A DNA stretch of 64,000 nucleotides from the human T2T-CHM13v2.0 reference genome, Homo sapiens: assembly GCF_009914755.1 (NCBI RefSeq), contig NC_060937.1, one strand, 5' to 3'. Under the pieces are notes generated by a model that made no database searches, was not told where the DNA came from, and worked only from the letters and a program-made list of their open reading frames with translations. Below, one piece after another: positions 5,346-51,429 of this stretch. The number at the start of each line of letters is the position of its first letter. Position 1 is the first letter of the stretch. A program made the translations under genes and the position numbers.

Positions 5346-6591
5346 AAAGGTCTGGCTCAGTCATGAGACATCTCTTTTTTATGTGATAACTTTTTCAAGA
5401 AAAAAATGTAGGCCACAGTCTTTCATTTTCCCTTCTTCAGAATTATTCTTTAGCCTCACATAGTAAAATTAGGTATGCTCATAATCAAAATTATCTTTTA
5501 AATAGAAGATTCTCTATCAGAAAAATGATGTTATGTTTTCGCCACTAAAATGTGATTGTTCAGGCATAATTGGTCATCGGCAGCCTCGAGGCAGCTCTCC
5601 TACCATTTTTTCCAAAGGTAAACTGAGCACCTTCCCCAGAAGCTGCATGGTGGGACTGCCCGGGTGCTTATCTCTGGGTCGGCTTGTGTGTGGTGGGGTG
5701 GAACCCTGCCTGTCTTCCTCTGTTCCATTGGGCTGGGAATGGGAGCCAGGCATTGGTCCTCCATAGCACTTCTGTTTCCTTACTGGGTAGATTTAAATGT
5801 GTGGGTCCCTCTCTTTTGGTGTGAATAGAAGGTAGAGGAAAAGTGTGTAGAACTCAGTGCATAGGGCAGTGGTTAGCATTTCAACAAGAACATCTCACAT
5901 ATCTAAGATTTGTTTAGCTCTTCAGGCACTGATAGGAGGTTTTAATAAGATCAATGATTTTTAGTTTAATTGGGTACTTTCCTTGTTCCCCTGGTAGAAT
6001 CCCACCTGGAAAATCTACTATAGCAGAGTAGAATTTGGAACATTTTTTCTTGGTCTGATACACTTAATGGTGGTTAGTGTTAGTCCCCAGCACACCAGAG
6101 GGAGGACATTCCTATTAGTAACCCTAGAGCTGTTACGTATAGGATTTGTGGGGTATTGGGATGGGTTGAAAAAAGTACAGGTAATTGCAATAACTCCTAC
6201 TAGTGGAGTTGAGAATAATTGGCCTTTTATAGCTGTTTGTTTTAGAAGAATTAGAATAGTGGAGTGGGCAGACCTGGAGTCAGGTGGACCTGGGTCATGG
6301 TTTTAACTAACCATTCCATGACTTTGGACAGGTTCCTTGTTACAGATTGAATCATTGAGCCTAGTTTTTCACCCTCTGTTATGGAATTCTGTTCCCTGGC
6401 CCTGGCCTCACGCTCATTGGAGCACACTTCCTTGACTTTGGGCATGGCCCCGTGACTTGCTTTGGCTGATGTCTGTATCCTCGGGTTCTGCATCCGTGGA
6501 TTCAATCAACCACCAATTGAAAATATTTTTGGGAAAAAATAAAAAATAGCAATACAATGATAAAAATAATACAAATAAAACAAAATACAGA

Positions 6592-6944
6592 TGATATGGT
6601 TAGGCTTTGTGTCTCCACCCAAATCTCAACTTCCCCAGGTGTTGAGGGAGGAACCTGGTGGGAGGTGATTGGATCATGGGGGCAGTTTCCCCCATGTTGT
6701 TCTTGTGTGAGTGAGTATTCACAAGATATGATGTTTTTATAAATGTTTGGCAAGTTGTTCCTTTGCTTGCTCTCTCTCTCACCTGCCACCCTGTAAGATG
6801 TGCCTGCTTCCCCTTCCACCATGATTGTAAGTGTCCTGAGGCCTCTCTAGCTGTGTGGAACTGTGAGTCAATTAAACCTCTTTTCATTATAAATTCCTCG
6901 GTCTCCAGAAGTTCTTCCTAGCAGTGTGAAAATGGACTAATACA
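6592..6944 (+). mobile_element. THE1 (THE1C/D-like) MaLR solo LTR
   Basis: tgatatggttaggctttgtgtc...ctgtgagtcaattaaacctctt...aatggactaataca with TG...CA termini. Confidence 0.92.
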
Positions 6945-38899: not shown

Positions 38900-40351
<1,452 letters not shown>

Positions 40352-41132
40352 CTTTTTTGTGTTTTTAATGCCTGGGTCTTGGGTTAGAAGAACCCTAATG
40401 CCCAAAGTCCCATCCATACCTTGTGGTGATGGCTGGCCTTTCTCGATTGCACATTTCTGAACAGCATCTCTGCGTTCCCGAGCTCAACTCTGCTCATCTT
40501 GGCAGGGTCTCCTGCTGTGCATGTATATCTGATAGTCCCATATGCTCCCTGTTTTGATGGGGCTCCCATTTTAGAAACATGCGGTTTGTGTGCGATTGCT
40601 CCCTTTAGCTGATGAGCAGCGCAGTAATTGCAATCACCCCATGGCATATGTGTGTCACTTTCCATTTTGGTAACATAGTGGAGAGAGTCTCTTGTTTTAA
40701 CCCGTGTTGTCATAATGAAGTTCACACGGATGGTTGTGATTTATGATCTCTCTTCTAGCTCTTCCTGCCAGTGGCACATTTCTTTATAATTTACAAAGTT
40801 CTTTCAATAGCCTCATCGTATTTAGAGCCTCCTGAGGTAGGCAGAAGTGGTAGCAGGTGCCCCATTCAACACAAGGGGAAACTGCGTGGAAACAAGTGGC
40901 CTCTAAGTCACTTGTTTAAGTTCCATTGTTTGTAATCAGTGGGCCTAGATCTTGAATCTCAGTGTTTGGATTCTAAAGGGGGCTTTCTGGCATTTCTCAT
41001 TCCTGTCTACACGGTTTTAGGTGTGCAGTGATTCCTTTAATAGGTTGTAACACTGGTTATGAGAGAGAACTGCCTGGAAGCCTCTTTGTATTGAATGTTA
41101 AGAATTCAGAAATGTGTGCCTGAGCGATTGGT

Positions 41133-46189: not shown

Positions 46190-48919
46190 CTCTGGAACCA
46201 TAAATTAGAACAGGAAGAAAAGTAAGAAGATGAAGGCTTGACCTTACTGTGAAACAATATCTTTTATGCAAGAAATGCTTACATTTGTGCTCTCTGAGAA
46301 GAAAGATTTGAAAACTTAGTTTTCCCGGCCCTCAGATGCCATATTCCCCTCCATCCCCCTCCATCGTGGCAGCAGCACAGCCTGCAAACCTATACAGTGT
46401 TCCTGTCATATCAGGGCCATGGAGCAAGAGCTGTATAAATGTGTTTCTCCAGAGCATGCACATTGTCAGTGACCAGAGGAGACGCCGCACTCAGGGTTAT
46501 AGGGTCCACCGTGCTCATGCTGAGGGCAGGATCCAGTGTGACAGAGGCATCCACGTGGTATTTTATCCTGTGGATTTGTGATTTGCAAGAGCAGCTAATG
46601 CAAACAGGTGTAAAAGCAGTACTCGATAGTTATTAAATCGCCTGTGTTTTATTCTAAATGTTGCTCACAAATCAGTATTATATGCTCTTCATCCCTGGAA
46701 CACACATTGAAAAATCGTGCCAGAAAGTAGAGATTGGTGTTGGATTTGGGATTTTTCAAATACTATGGGAAAGCTTCTTCATTTCAGTCACTTGAAAACA
46801 TTTTAAAAATATCTGGATTTAGAGTATTTTAAAAAATAATCATAATATCCTGACTCATTACTGGTAGTGTTGTTCCCTTGATATTGGTGACTTAAAGCCA
46901 GCTATATGGTTGGGGGCCACTGAAACACAGCAAAATGAGCTGTTTCACAAGGAAAACAAATGGTATGATTTTGATATGGAACTCCATGGTCTGGTGAGCC
47001 AAGTACCTAGGATATGTCCGAAGGAATCCTCAGGCTCTCATTTTGAGAAATAATCTGAGTACCTGTTCTCTCAAGCTGAAAAAGAAATTGTAATGAAGAA
47101 TTCAAGTTAATAGGTGAGAGAAATACTATACCCATTAGGACTTCAACAGTAAGAGCTATATAAAAATGGAATGGGCCACAGTGAACAAATATGGAAATAG
47201 CAGTCCCATTTATGGATTTTATTTGCATTATATAATGGGGTGCAGACATTACATTCATTGCTATTACCACTAATAACAGCACCACCTTACGTTTTCATAA
47301 TGCTTTCTATTTTACGCAGGGCTTCCCACACACTTGAGCTCGTTTACTTCTCATATAAACATGTGAGAAAGTGTAGACAAAGAAACTGAGTTTCAAAATG
47401 GTGACAGCACTTACCCAAGGTCAGAAAGCTTCCATGTGGCCAAAACAGGACACAAATTGAGATGTTCTTGTCCCATTTTTCATGTTTTCTGCCATGCCAA
47501 AGCTTGCCTTGTAAATAAAGTAACCGATGCAATTCATGTGCTGCATGCAAACAGCCATGCTGGACAATTCATGGTAACACTGATTTAAAGTGCTAATAGC
47601 CAAGGGTGAAAACAAACATATGATTTATGGCTTTAGTATTAATGAGAACTTTCAAATTTCACAAGATATAGATGGCATTGAGTCTGGGGGTGTTAAAACT
47701 CTGCACACAGAACAACTATTGAGGAGAAAGAAATATTTTGCGTAGATCAAAGCCATTTTGAATACTTCTCAGCATCTTAGATCTGCACAAATAAAGCTGT
47801 ATTTGGAAGGTGAGGAGGGTGGCAGGGTCCACACCCTGGGTGGGGGAAGATGCAGCCCTTGGCATCACAGCAGTCACAGGTACAATAACAAATGGCTTCT
47901 CTGATAAGTGACTCTCCGGTTCTTCCGGGACACTTGACTGCAGAAAACAGTCAGCATTATTAACCTAAGAAATAATTGGTCCCCACAATGTCCTTCTGCA
48001 CTGTGTTCGCAGGTGGCCCTGTGAGGAGTCAGCTAAAATCATGCCTGCTCAGCACCAGGCAGCATTCTCAATCACCGAAGCTTCAGAATAAACAGTATGC
48101 ATTTGGACCTAGGACCTTTTAATGTTCAGAAACCCAAAACAATCTTAGTTTCTCAAAGGGTCAAATTGTAAATAATACTGAAAGCACAGCCACTTAGGTT
48201 AGTTTTACCCTGTGGCCCAAGGTACAGTAAAACCTAAATACTAATGTCGCAGCCCCGAGTTCTGAGAGCTGCAGGGTGTTTGAGAATGGCTTTCCCATTC
48301 TTCAAAGCTCAGTTCCTGTCTTATGGGAGAAAGTGTACCTTGAAAAGGTAATTCTTTAAAAATTACTTAACAATTTTTGTTTTGTGAATTATTTAAACAC
48401 AAAAACACAGAAAATAATTCACCTTTATGTACATCCACTTCTAAGAGATGCTGATTTTTTTGCATTTGCTGCAGACTTTTTAAGAGAAATGTTCAGGCAG
48501 AGATAGTTAAGCCCCTATCTAAATTCTTTCCCTGTGCCCCTTCCCCCAATAAAACTGCTAGTCTGAGTAGATATGAACATTTCCTTGCATGATTTTATCC
48601 TCTTATTATATATGTATATATCAAAAAATATATATAGTTCTATTTTGTATGTTTACAGTGGACATACACTCTGTATGTAGCTTGCTTTTTTAGAAAAAAA
48701 TCCCTAGCATTATTTTTTGAGATTAAAATAGATTTTATTTATTAACTGCTGTAAATTTATTAGCCTGCTCTATGATATGAATAGGAAGTTGGATGTAAAA
48801 TTTAGTTTTTCCTGTCTGCTGTTGATAGACACTGAAATTATTTAAAATTTTTCACTCTTAGCAAGAGTAATGAAACAACACTTCTGACAGGTAACTCCAT
48901 GGACATGAGAGGTATCCTA

Positions 48920-49073
48920 CAGGCTGTCTTGAAAACTGTCATTATTGCATATTATAAGGGTAAGTTTTGTTTAGTTAAACTTTTTTCCATTAGATGTTTA
49001 TATATGCAGGTGCACTGGGCTGTGATGTAAAATATATTTCTGAGGGTCATAGTGAAAAACTGGAAGCTGCCTC
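48920..49073 (-). mobile_element. Charlie4-like hAT fragment within an old L1ME (~48370-49260)
   Basis: aagggtaagttttgtttagttaaacttt...cactgggctgtgatgtaaaatatatttct. Confidence 0.55.
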
Positions 49074-49737
49074 ACTAGGGCATGTACCTAAGACCTACTG
49101 TTGGGTCACAGGATATATGCATCTTCGGCTATCCTGAATGTTGCCAAACTGCTTATGAAAGTGACTGCATCTTATTTGCAGGGCTCCCTCCTATTTTACC
49201 ACATTTTAGCACTAGGCTTTTGTGACAAGGGTTTCTAACTGTAATCATAGTTTGCTTTTCCCTATTGCTGGTGAGGCTAAGAATAAGTCAGTTCTAAGTG
49301 TTAGAAATCCATTTATTTGAAGGTTTACATTTTGTAATTTTATCACAGTATTGGATAGTCACAAGAAAAATAAAGCATGTGGAAAGGAGAGGCTGGGATC
49401 TTTCTAGGTTGATTGGAAGAAGGCAGGCGAGAAATAGCTAATATTTTGATACCTGATGTTACAGACTTCAGCCTTAGAAAACGACTAGAATTGATGGTGC
49501 TCTCTGCTGTCGGGTATGTGATGTGTTGCACTTAGGGCAGAGGGTGAAAATGTAGGTGCCTTCAGCAGCCTGTGTTTTTATGTAAGTGAGTAAAGCGTGC
49601 TGGGTGTAACATGTTTGCACATTTAATGCATGGAACAGTTCTTCACTCCTTCAGACGTATATTCTCTCTCCCAATTTTCTTGTTATACTGCCCTCTTTGT
49701 CTTTTATTTTCTGTCTTTGATGCTTGTGTGGACGCAG

Positions 49738-49752
49738 AGAGCTAACTGGACG
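49738..49752 (+). other. Candidate 15-nt cassette microexon (AGAGCTAACTGGACG)
   Basis: No AG between 49655 and 49735; C/T-rich tract; TGC at 49721-49723; gcag| acceptor; ACG|GTGAGT donor; length divisible by 3. Confidence 0.5.
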
Positions 49753-51075
49753 GTGAGTAGTTTCTTATGGTAAGTTTCCGTGGTGGGCTCTGCAGGGACA
49801 GCTGCAACTCTGCTCTAGGGGAGTTTTGTTTTGTGGGAATTAGAATCCAATGTTGCTAGATATTTTTATGCGTTTTCCAAGAGAAAGTGGAAATATTTTT
49901 AAAAATTAATTTAATCTTGTGAAGTCTCTTGATTTAGTTTTTAAAATACTGAGCCACGTTTTTAAAAACACAGTTTGGGCCAAACAAACTGTATCTGAAT
50001 TTAGACTGTGAGCCACTGATTTGAAATTTCTATGTTAAGGGAACAGAACTGTGAAATGGCTAAGTTTTTAGAAATCATGAACACCAATGTTGATTCCTTA
50101 TGACCTAATTTGTCATTTTGCTTGTTTCCTCCTGGGTGTGTAAATGAGTGCTGAAGGAGCTGTGAAATTCTGAATAATACTCATTTGTCTTTGCTCCTCA
50201 GCACTTAATACAAGGCTTGTTATATAATAGGTTCATAATAAATGTTTGTCCAATCAATGCATAAATGAATGATGAAAACATACGGCTCCTGTTCCTTTAG
50301 AATTGAAAATCTGAGTTAAAAAACATACTTGCTGTTTACCAGTTTTGTGTTATTTTCTCGGGGCTAATAGTAAGAGGAAATTTCTGCTGTGCAAGGCTTT
50401 TCCACATGTCAAACCCTGACAGTTTTACTGTTCACCAAAATGCCACATAGCTAATTCATGATTTATAAAGAAAGCTCAGCACATTAATAGATTAGATAGT
50501 AGAATGAATAATAAATGGCAAAGCTATGTATACAAAGAAAATATGCATAGCTCTTGGAAAATCATATAATGAGGGTTGGTCCATCTGGAGCCTTTTCTTC
50601 CTAGGGGAAATGTAAGGATCGAGTGATAATCCTTCAGTTATAAAAGAAGAAAATGAAGTTCCATATGGGTATTTGATCAAGCCCAGGAAATTGCAGTGCT
50701 GAGGAAATTCTAGAACAATTAAGGCTCTTCCGCACTTAACCCAGTAGGCAGCCCGATTGGATCCATGGCAGCAGAATGCTATTGAAAATGTTAGTGTGGA
50801 GTGGGTAGGAATTTGATCATGATCCTTTCCATCCCTAGCAGCCAGAGCCATCAAAGTCTTATTTTAAGTCTCTTGATTCTAAAAATCACTTCAGAGCTGT
50901 CCTTAGTTCTCCCTGCTTCCCGACTTGCTTCTGCCTGGCCTGGGCCACAGAAACGCGGCATGGTCAGTGGGGTCTTTGCCCGGCCCTGAAGTCCTGTTAG
51001 AGTTCTCCTGGTCCCGGCTCTGACTCTCCACAGTGGCTTCTTCGGCAGTTTACTCACTGGGCGTTTCCAATCTCG

Positions 51076-51122
51076 CCTGCGGCAGCATCGCCCTCCCCTG
51101 CGGCAGCATCGCCCTCCCCTGC
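51076..51122. repeat. Perfect 21-bp tandem duplication cctgcggcagcatcgccctcc
   Basis: Two exact copies (51076-51096, 51097-51117) plus a partial third. Confidence 0.97.
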
Positions 51123-51429
51123 AGCCCCCTGCCTTCAGCACTGTAGGAAAACCCATCAGAAGACCACCTTGACAGTGTGGTCAGTCAACCAAATGTCTTT
51201 TCTCCATCCTTCCTCTCCTTCTGGACATAATAACATCTGTTGAGTGCATTCCATTTGCCAGACACTGTTGCAAATATTTGATGCATTTTATCTCATTTAA
51301 TCTTTGCCAGAAACCATGAGGACAATATTATTTTTATCCCTAATTTTTGTGGTGAGGAAACTGAGGCACAGGAACATGTTGATTATCTTTGCCTTTTTGA
51401 AACTCAGCTTATTTTTTGCTTTCCATACC

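What the first reader, a model, noticed from the sequence alone, without database searches (positions are those of the whole stretch)
49600..49780. Candidate SRRM4-type 15-nt neural microexon on the + strand
Seen: about 80 nt with no AG (49655-49735), C/T-rich including tctctctc, TGC 15-17 nt upstream of the acceptor, then gacgcag|AGAGCTAACTGGACG|gtgagt. A TGCATG (RBFOX motif) lies at 49627-49632 and the region is free of recognisable repeats. Established: neural microexons are 3-27 nt, usually frame-preserving, and have long AG-exclusion zones, strong pyrimidine tracts and a UGC near the 3' splice site bound by SRRM3/4. Inference: a 5-aa insert, RANWT in phase 0 or -ELTG- in phase 2; the third frame contains TAA. 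A second strong donor (ATG|GTAAGT at 49769/49770) would give a 32-nt frameshifting or poison version. This is the best exon-like signal I found and would put the host gene on +.
Basis: partly seen in the sequence, partly recalled or inferred. Interest (0 to 1): 0.75.

Follow-up and report, generated by a model that had tools for sequence, protein, structure and literature searches.

The report
Microexon look-alike in MTUS2 upstream intron
A 15-base stretch deep in a non-coding upstream intron of human MTUS2 carries nearly every sequence hallmark of a brain-specific microexon, but it lies before the protein's start codon, so it cannot add five amino acids, and it is most likely an unused look-alike.

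Summary
The combination is rare. Of 46,212 AG-N(3-27)-GT pairs in 528 kb of strand sequence (window plus 200 kb downstream, both strands), only this site passes even relaxed cuts. The factorised chance expectation is 0.017-0.14 per 528 kb. That still implies about 200-1,600 chance look-alikes genome-wide, as many as or more than the known neural microexons (231, 144).

The architecture matches the published SRRM3/4 layout: UCUCUC...UGC, a distal pyrimidine tract, a weak 3' splice site and a strong 5' splice site.

The coding inference fails. The large first coding exon of MTUS2 lies at window coordinates ~100,078-102,590, and an in-frame stop precedes its ATG. The window therefore lies 5' of the coding sequence, in an intron of transcripts that start at a CpG-island promoter 105 kb upstream. 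No 5-aa insert is possible in transcripts that use that exon.

The TGCATG lies upstream of the exon and no GCATG lies downstream. Conservation and junction reads could not be tested. No paper links MTUS2 to microexons.

Verdict: most likely a chance pseudo-exon (~0.72); a real, non-coding 5'-UTR mini-exon is possible (~0.2).

The parts
49627..49632 (+). TGCATG (RBFOX-type hexamer), 106 nt upstream of the acceptor
   Evidence: TGCATG occurs once per 2,422 nt on + in 264 kb, and it is the only GCATG within 300 nt on either side of the candidate.
49642..49646 (+). TTCAC, branch-point-like yUnAy (A at 49645) just before the AG-free zone; a possible distal branch point 93 nt from the exon
   Evidence: motif list. 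Use as a branch point is inferred, not shown.
49655..49735 (+). 81-nt AG-free zone, 74% pyrimidine over the 78 nt before the acceptor
   Evidence: A zone of >=81 nt is seen at 0.58% of the acceptors examined.
49663..49670 (+). TCTCTCTC, the alternating CU tract (UCUCUC half of the bipartite enhancer; PTBP1-type motif)
   Evidence: Architecture taken from passages.
49689..49691 (+). First TGC inside the AG-free zone
49703..49721 (+). Two branch-point-like yUnAy motifs, TTTAT (A at 49706, 32 nt from the exon) and TTGAT (A at 49720, 18 nt)
49721..49723 (+). TGC 15-17 nt before the exon, between the pyrimidine tract and the AG (the position of the SRRM3/4-associated UGC)
   Evidence: distance 17. 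The motif's role is from passages.
49736..49737 (+). Candidate acceptor AG (cAG), followed by two more AGs at 49738-41; weak 3' splice-site context
   Evidence: 3'ss score is 2.66 bits with a recalled approximate matrix.
49738..49752 (+). Candidate 15-nt exon AGAGCTAACTGGACG; has no ATG and contains CTAAC
49753..49758 (+). Strong donor ACG|GTGAGT
   Evidence: Score is 10.63 of a possible 13.0; 0.24% of AG..GT pairs reach it.
49770..49775 (+). Second strong donor ATG|GTAAGT, giving a 32-nt exon (49738-49769) that ends in ATG
   Evidence: Score 9.85. Pairs of donors scoring >=9.8 within 40 nt: 7 in 528 kb.
49582..49591 (+). Two overlapping weaker GTRAGT motifs (TAT|GTAAGT 6.48, TAA|GTGAGT 6.89), part of a cluster of four GTRAGT in 190 nt
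   Evidence: Three such clusters of >=4 within 200 nt occur in 528 kb.

Best explanation
This is most likely a chance pseudo-exon: a rare but fortuitous conjunction of splice-like motifs (distal CU-rich tract, UGC, cAG, 15 nt, strong GTGAGT, then a second GTAAGT). It sits in a very long non-coding (5'-UTR) intron of MTUS2 transcripts that start at a CpG-island promoter 105 kb upstream of the window. It is not spliced into mRNA at more than noise level. Whatever its use, it cannot insert amino acids into the MTUS2 protein, because the coding sequence begins about 50 kb further downstream. Shown: the motifs, their rarity, the single-copy status, and the position of the coding start relative to the window. 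Inferred: that the site is not used.
For: (1) Base rates. The factorised chance expectation is 0.017-0.14 per 528 kb. Scaled to about 6.2 Gb of strand sequence (3.117 Gb genome), that is about 200-1,600 chance sites of equal quality. Recent studies analyse 231 human neural microexons (180 with UGC plus 51 without, passages) and 144 SRRM3/4-dependent ones (73 plus 71, passages), and only a fraction of those would pass the same cuts. [quoted passage not shown] This site is outside the coding sequence: the 769-codon frame begins at window coordinate 100284, with a TAG inside the exon before the ATG, and the hub table lists no coding part in the window. (3) The selected RefSeq transcript has none of its 16 exons in the window (hub table). 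[quoted passage not shown] Full-text searches for MTUS2 with microexon, micro-exon, HsaEX or cryptic exon found 0 papers each. MTUS2 with SRRM4 found 6 papers, whose listing (titles, start of abstracts, 1-2 occurrences per term) gave no sign of splicing of MTUS2; I did not open them. (5) The 3'ss proper is weak. There is no downstream GCATG. The branch-point-to-3'ss region is not unusually unpaired: pairing probability 0.515, 32nd percentile of 150 random AG sites and 72nd of 100 pyrimidine-rich AG sites.
Against: The conjunction is truly unusual. It is the only one of 46,212 candidate pairs in 528 kb to pass even relaxed cuts, and the pattern-only test agrees (1 of 128). It matches the published SRRM3/4 layout in four features. 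It lies on the sense strand of a gene transcribed through the window from a strong CpG-island promoter (skews). A second strong donor sits 17 nt further on. Local CpG o/e of 0.36-0.41 is near the 90th percentile of 300-nt bins, which could hint at constraint. The other 13 RefSeq transcripts, all junction data, all cross-species conservation and the supplementary tables of microexon papers were not visible to me.
Confidence: 0.72

Rival explanations
1. It is a real but non-coding cassette mini-exon (15 nt, or 32 nt with the second donor) in the 5' UTR of MTUS2 transcripts that start at the upstream CpG-island promoter. PTBP1 on the CU tract would repress it in most tissues. SRRM3/4 bound near the UGC would switch it on in neurons or endocrine cells, helping U2 snRNP recruitment to a distal branch point. 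The 15-nt form would only lengthen the leader. The 32-nt form ends in ATG and would add an upstream start codon.
For: The site shows four cis features of the SRRM3/4 class (layout passages). The conjunction is rare. The site is on the sense strand downstream of a strong CpG island at the annotated gene start. There are two strong donors. CpG o/e is mildly raised. The gene has 14 RefSeq transcripts, of which I saw only one (hub table).
Against: Chance look-alikes are as many as or more than real microexons genome-wide. Microexons are usually coding and frame-preserving (passages), and this one cannot be. No paper connects MTUS2 with microexons. There is no downstream GCATG, and the 3'ss region is not unusually accessible. 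No expression or conservation evidence of any kind is available.
Confidence: 0.2
2. One reading: a frame-preserving coding neural microexon that inserts RANWT or -ELTG- into the MTUS2 protein.
For: 15 nt is a multiple of three, and two of the three frames are open. The cis features are as above.
Against: The window lies 5' of the coding sequence. The large coding exon starts at about window coordinate 100,078, and an in-frame TAG inside that exon lies upstream of its ATGs, so no reading frame can enter it from upstream. The hub table lists no coding parts in the window. This reading would need an unannotated isoform with an upstream start codon that skips or differently splices that exon.
Confidence: 0.02
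3. The motif cluster serves something other than exon inclusion. For example, it could be a cluster of U1 snRNP binding sites (four GTRAGT in 190 nt) that protects the long intron from premature cleavage and polyadenylation, a splicing decoy, or a DNA-level regulatory element whose sequence happens to look exon-like.
For: Four GTRAGT lie within 190 nt. CpG o/e is near the 90th percentile. The sequence is unique in the genome.
Against: Clusters of >=4 GTRAGT within 200 nt occur 3 times in 528 kb, so they are not rare. GTRAGT is generally enriched on + (151 against 92), as expected from the G+T skew. No test of binding or conservation was possible. The U1-protection mechanism is recalled, not from a call.
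Confidence: 0.05

Closest known systems
SRRM3/4 (nSR100, eMIC-domain)-dependent neural and endocrine microexons of vertebrates
   Same: The length is 15 nt (class range 3-27). The 5' splice site is strong. There is an 81-nt AG-free zone with the CU-rich pyrimidine tract and candidate branch points far from the AG. A UGC lies 15-17 nt before the exon, between the tract and the AG. UCUCUC is followed within 50 nt by UGC. The 3'ss context is weak (against passages and the fly/mammal comparison).
   Different: It lies outside the coding sequence, so it is not a frame-preserving protein insert. There is no evidence of inclusion, of SRRM4 response or of vertebrate conservation. The region before the 3'ss is not unusually unpaired. 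It is absent from the one RefSeq transcript shown.
Intronic pseudo-exons (splice-site-flanked stretches in long introns that are not spliced)
   Same: It is deep in an intron (about 154 kb from the upstream promoter and about 50 kb from the next known exon). It is unannotated in the transcript shown, its 3'ss is weak, and such sites are expected by chance at genome scale.
   Different: It is of much higher quality than the other 46,211 AG-N(3-27)-GT pairs in the surrounding 528 kb.
RBFOX-activated micro-exons (Li et al. 2015, PMC4317164)
   Same: A TGCATG is nearby.
   Different: The motif is upstream of the exon and none lies within 300 nt downstream. That activation goes with downstream sites is recalled, not read in a call; my term searches in that paper for the motif found nothing.
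Recursive splice sites and RS-exons of long vertebrate introns
   Same: It is a very long intron of a brain-expressed gene, with a strong downstream donor.
   Different: A recursive site needs AG immediately followed by GTRAGT so that a 5'ss is rebuilt after the first step. Here the AG is followed by AGAGCT. The definition is recalled.

Membership tests
SRRM3/4-dependent neural microexon | Exon of 3-27 nt bounded by AG and GT | tested here: met
   AG at 49736-37, 15 nt at 49738-52, GT at 49753-54. Length range passages.
SRRM3/4-dependent neural microexon | Strong 5' splice site | tested here: met
   ACG|GTGAGT scores 10.63 of a possible 13.0 with a recalled approximate matrix, a top 0.24% value among AG..GT pairs. 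It also matches G|GTRAGT, as 128 pairs in 528 kb do. MaxEntScan was not available.
SRRM3/4-dependent neural microexon | Pyrimidine tract and branch point far from the AG (long AG-exclusion zone) with a weak 3'ss context | tested here: met
   The AG-free zone is 81 nt (0.58% of acceptors reach this) and 74% pyrimidine. yUnAy motifs lie 18, 32 and 93 nt from the exon. The 3'ss score is 2.66. Branch points are motif matches only; SVM-BPfinder was not available.
SRRM3/4-dependent neural microexon | UGC between pyrimidine tract or branch point and AG; bipartite UCU_CUC[N1-50]_UGC enhancer | tested here: met
   TCTCTCTC is at 49663-70 and TGC at 49689-91 and 49721-23. A TGC in -5..-40 occurs by chance at 40% of acceptors. 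UGC is present in 79% (57/73) and 74% (51/71) of real events.
SRRM3/4-dependent neural microexon | Lies in the coding sequence and preserves the reading frame (usual, not universal) | tested here: not met
   The coding sequence starts in the exon at window coordinates ~100,078-102,590, with an in-frame TAG before the ATG. The hub table lists no coding part in the window. That this ORF is MTUS2's first coding exon is inferred from its place, strand and length; Pfam gave no family.
SRRM3/4-dependent neural microexon | High vertebrate conservation of the exon and about 75 nt of each flank | not testable with these tools
   No vertebrate genome other than the window's own is held (one search says it has no relatives here). 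The feature is passages.
SRRM3/4-dependent neural microexon | Inclusion in neural or endocrine RNA and response to SRRM3/4 dosage | not testable with these tools
   No RNA-seq or junction resource is available. Literature searches found 0 papers for MTUS2 with microexon, micro-exon or HsaEX. Supplementary tables were closed.
SRRM3/4-dependent neural microexon | Unusually accessible (unpaired) branch-point-to-3'ss region | tested here: inconclusive
   Mean pairing probability of the 45 nt before the 3'ss is 0.515. For 150 random AG sites it is 0.564 +/- 0.099, and for 100 pyrimidine-rich AG sites 0.438 +/- 0.121. The feature is passages.
RBFOX-activated exon | (U)GCAUG in the downstream intron | tested here: not met
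   There are 0 GCATG in 49753-50052; the only one within 300 nt is upstream at 49628. The position rule is recalled.
Recursive splice site | AG directly followed by GTRAGT | tested here: not met
   The AG is followed by AGAGCT. The definition is recalled.

The most novel reading that the evidence does not exclude
This is an unannotated SRRM3/4- and PTBP1-controlled mini-exon in the 5' leader of MTUS2 transcripts from the far-upstream CpG-island promoter. Its two competing donors would give either a neutral 15-nt insert or a 32-nt insert that ends in ATG and plants an upstream start codon. It would then be a neural splicing switch acting on translation of a microtubule plus-end scaffold rather than on its protein sequence.
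Probability: 0.05. Interest if true: 0.45.

Novelty: not a real feature. Interest (0 to 1): 0.2.

Why it matters
If the site were used, it would be one of the uncommon non-coding microexons. It would tie MTUS2 (a microtubule plus-end scaffold expressed in heart and brain, as I recall) to the SRRM3/4 programme through its leader rather than its protein. As it stands, the value is methodological. Sequence-only calls of microexons can reach a very high motif quality (unique in half a megabase) and still be outnumbered by chance sites genome-wide. The position of the coding start must also be checked before any reading-frame argument is made.

Tried and rejected
- **Repeat or pseudogene origin:** rejected. 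The 301-nt and 1,701-nt queries matched only themselves in the 3.1-Gb genome, apart from one 54-nt match on another chromosome. That search skips very common words, so an ancient diverged repeat is not excluded.
- **Structured RNA:** no Rfam match at E<=1 in 48500-51000.
- **Recursive splice site:** rejected, because the AG is not followed by GT.
- **RBFOX activation:** not supported.
- **Nearby alternative promoter:** the GC-rich patch at 50900-51130 is not CpG-island-like by my cut (GC>=0.55 and o/e>=0.6), so I dropped it.
- **Bacterial promoter/terminator scan:** irrelevant to human DNA and ignored.
- **Pfam on the large ORF:** nothing found, so its identity rests on place, strand and length.
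- **RNA accessibility:** uninformative.
- **Earlier findings of the scan:** not open.
- **Upstream 110 kb of the gene:** could not be fetched whole. Only 5 kb around the gene start was read, so exons between the upstream promoter and the window were not looked for.
- **Irimia et al. 2014:** not held.
- **Term searches in PMC4317164 for the RBFOX motif:** found nothing.
- **Positive control:** I could not run my cuts on known microexons, because that needs sequences I did not hold. The fraction of real events that would pass is my estimate, not a result.

Full report
**1. Observation**

- The acceptor is cAG at 49736-37.
- The 15 nt AGAGCTAACTGGACG lie at 49738-52, followed by GTGAGT at 49753-58.
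- The previous AG is at 49653-54, so 49655-49735 (81 nt) is free of AG.
- TCTCTCTC lies at 49663-70.
- TGC lies at 49721-23 (15-17 nt before the exon), with another at 49689-91.
- TGCATG lies at 49627-32.
- A second donor, ATG|GTAAGT, lies at 49769/49770 and gives a 32-nt version.
- The three frames read RANWT, ELTG and S*LD.

The stretch is single-copy in its own 3.1-Gb genome. A 301-nt query matched only itself. A 1,701-nt query matched itself plus one 54-nt match at 85% identity on another chromosome, at window 50218-50271. It matches no Rfam family at E<=1.

**2. Is it more than chance?**

I fetched the 200 kb directly downstream of the window. I then scanned window plus flank on both strands, which is 528 kb of strand sequence.
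- There are 46,212 AG-N(3-27)-GT pairs.
- At the site's own quality (5'ss score >=10.6, AG-free zone >=60, pyrimidines >=0.70 over 78 nt, TGC at -5..-40), only the site itself passes.
- With much looser cuts (5'ss >=6, zone >=30, pyrimidines >=0.70, TGC), it is still the only one.
- A donor criterion that uses no weight matrix (G|GTRAGT) gives the same result: 1 of 128 pairs. With the looser N|GTRAGN, zone >=45 and pyrimidines >=0.65, 4 of 2,002 pairs pass, including this site.
- Multiplying the separately measured frequencies gives 0.017 expected per 528 kb at the site's own values. The frequencies are P(5'ss) 0.0024, P(zone >=81) 0.0058, P(pyrimidines >=0.74 given a long zone) 0.063 and P(TGC) 0.40. 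At cuts of 60 nt and 0.70 the expectation is 0.14.

Two cautions apply. The cuts were chosen after seeing the site, and the splice-site matrices are approximations I recalled. At genome scale (about 6.2 Gb of strand sequence), the same rates predict roughly 200-1,600 chance sites of this quality.

**3. Fit to the known class**

Passages of bioRxiv 10.1101/2024.09.17.613571 describe SRRM3/4-dependent microexons as follows.
- They have strong 5' splice sites.
- They have strong pyrimidine tracts and branch points placed far from the AG, hence a weak 3'ss context.
- They have a bipartite UCU_CUC[N1-50]_UGC enhancer.
- UGC is present in 57/73 and 51/71 events and is not strictly required.

Passages of PMC12871342 add three points. 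Predicted branch points are a median 45 nt from the 3'ss, against 34 nt for other alternative exons. The branch-point-to-3'ss region is unusually accessible. Microexons are usually coding, retain the reading frame and are highly conserved.

The candidate meets the length, 5'ss, AG-free zone and distal tract, and UCUCUC...UGC features. Branch-point-like yUnAy motifs lie 18, 32 and 93 nt from the exon. Accessibility is unremarkable: pairing probability is 0.515, against 0.564 +/- 0.099 for 150 random AG sites and 0.438 +/- 0.121 for 100 pyrimidine-rich AG sites.

The TGCATG is upstream, and there is no GCATG in the 300 nt after the donor. By the position rule as I recall it, that does not favour inclusion.

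**4. Where the site sits in the gene**

The hub table places the window inside MTUS2 (+ strand). The gene spans -104,785 to 580,869 in window coordinates, and none of the 16 exons of the selected transcript lies in the window.
- In the downstream flank there is a single very long open frame on +: 769 codons at window coordinates 100,284-102,590 (L005:6284-8590).
- It follows a good acceptor (ctctctag|GTCTC at L005:6077/6078).
- It has a TAG at L005:6281 in frame, ahead of the ATGs at 6290 and 6320.
- It has no Pfam family, so it is not a recognisable transposon frame.
- From its place, strand and length I take it to be the large first coding exon of the long MTUS2 isoform. Its N-terminus also agrees with my recollection of the protein, which no call supports.

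Because an in-frame stop lies inside that exon upstream of the ATG, no reading frame can enter it from upstream. Everything in the window is therefore 5' of the coding sequence.

The annotated gene start carries a strong CpG island (GC 0.76-0.83, CpG o/e 0.75-1.07 over about 1.2 kb; L022:1800-3000). Transcripts from that promoter would run through the window. T>A and G>C skews on + across the window are consistent with transcription on that strand.

The candidate thus lies about 154 kb from that promoter and about 50 kb before the large coding exon, in a leader intron. The '5-aa insert' cannot hold for any transcript that uses that exon. At most this would be a non-coding 5'-UTR mini-exon. The 15-nt form has no ATG, while the 32-nt form ends in ATG and would add an upstream start codon.

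**5. Weighing**

For a real exon:
- the exceptional motif quality;
- the sense strand of a gene with a CpG-island promoter upstream;
- two strong donors 17 nt apart (7 such pairs in 528 kb);
- CpG o/e of 0.36-0.41, near the 90th percentile of 300-nt bins.

Against a real exon:
- Chance sites of this quality are as many as or more than the real class genome-wide (231 and 144 events).
- The site lacks the coding, frame-preserving character typical of the class.
- Four full-text searches pairing MTUS2 with microexon, micro-exon, HsaEX or cryptic exon returned 0 papers.
- MTUS2 with SRRM4 returned six papers. Their listing (titles, start of abstracts, 1-2 occurrences per term) gave no sign of splicing of MTUS2, and I did not open them.

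Supplementary tables, where microexon lists live, were closed, so absence from print is weakly established. I could not see the other 13 RefSeq transcripts, any junction data or any other vertebrate genome. These are the decisive data, and they are named under next steps.

**6. Verdict**

| Reading | Probability |
|---|---|
| Chance pseudo-exon | 0.72 |
| Real non-coding mini-exon, possibly SRRM3/4- or PTBP-regulated | 0.20 |
| Other role (U1-site cluster or DNA element) | 0.05 |
| Coding microexon as proposed | 0.02 |

Interest is low to modest. Even if real, it would be one more member of a known class, placed in a leader.

Noticed in passing
L022:1800-3000 (about 105 kb upstream of the window start, at the annotated MTUS2 gene start): There is a strong CpG island (GC 0.76-0.83, CpG o/e 0.75-1.07). 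It marks a far-upstream promoter about 205 kb before the first coding exon. Transcripts from it would carry a very long leader intron that includes the whole window.
   Followed up: partly
L005:6078-8590 (window coordinates ~100,078-102,590): A 769-codon open frame on + sits behind a good acceptor, with an in-frame TAG before its first ATGs. It is taken to be the large first coding exon of MTUS2. It has no Pfam family.
   Followed up: partly
window 51077-51118: Two exact head-to-tail copies of a 21-nt unit, with the start of a third, lie inside a GC-rich patch at 50900-51130 (GC 0.59). The patch is not CpG-island-like by my cut.
   Followed up: no
window 6707-6863 (+), and one cluster on the minus strand of the downstream flank (reverse-complement coordinates 65861-66014 of the 264-kb stretch, i.e. 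about window coordinates 197,987-198,140): These are two other clusters of four or more GTRAGT motifs within 200 nt. The first borders stretches masked as repeats in the hub table, so both are probably repeat-borne.
   Followed up: no
window plus 200 kb downstream, whole: GTRAGT is much commoner on + (151) than on - (92). T>A and G>C skews on + hold in most 12-kb bins, with T>A reaching 0.12-0.20 in several bins downstream of the window. This fits transcription-linked asymmetry plus oriented repeats.
   Followed up: no
window 50218-50271: This is the only other match of the 1.7 kb around the site in the whole genome: 54 nt at 85% identity on contig C21. It is probably a fragment of an old repeat.
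   Followed up: no
window 40051-40350: This is the only CpG-island-like bin inside the window (GC 0.58, o/e 0.95, 24 CpG). It coincides with a stretch masked as repeat (40026-40372 in the hub table), so it is probably a young CpG-rich repeat rather than a promoter.
   Followed up: no
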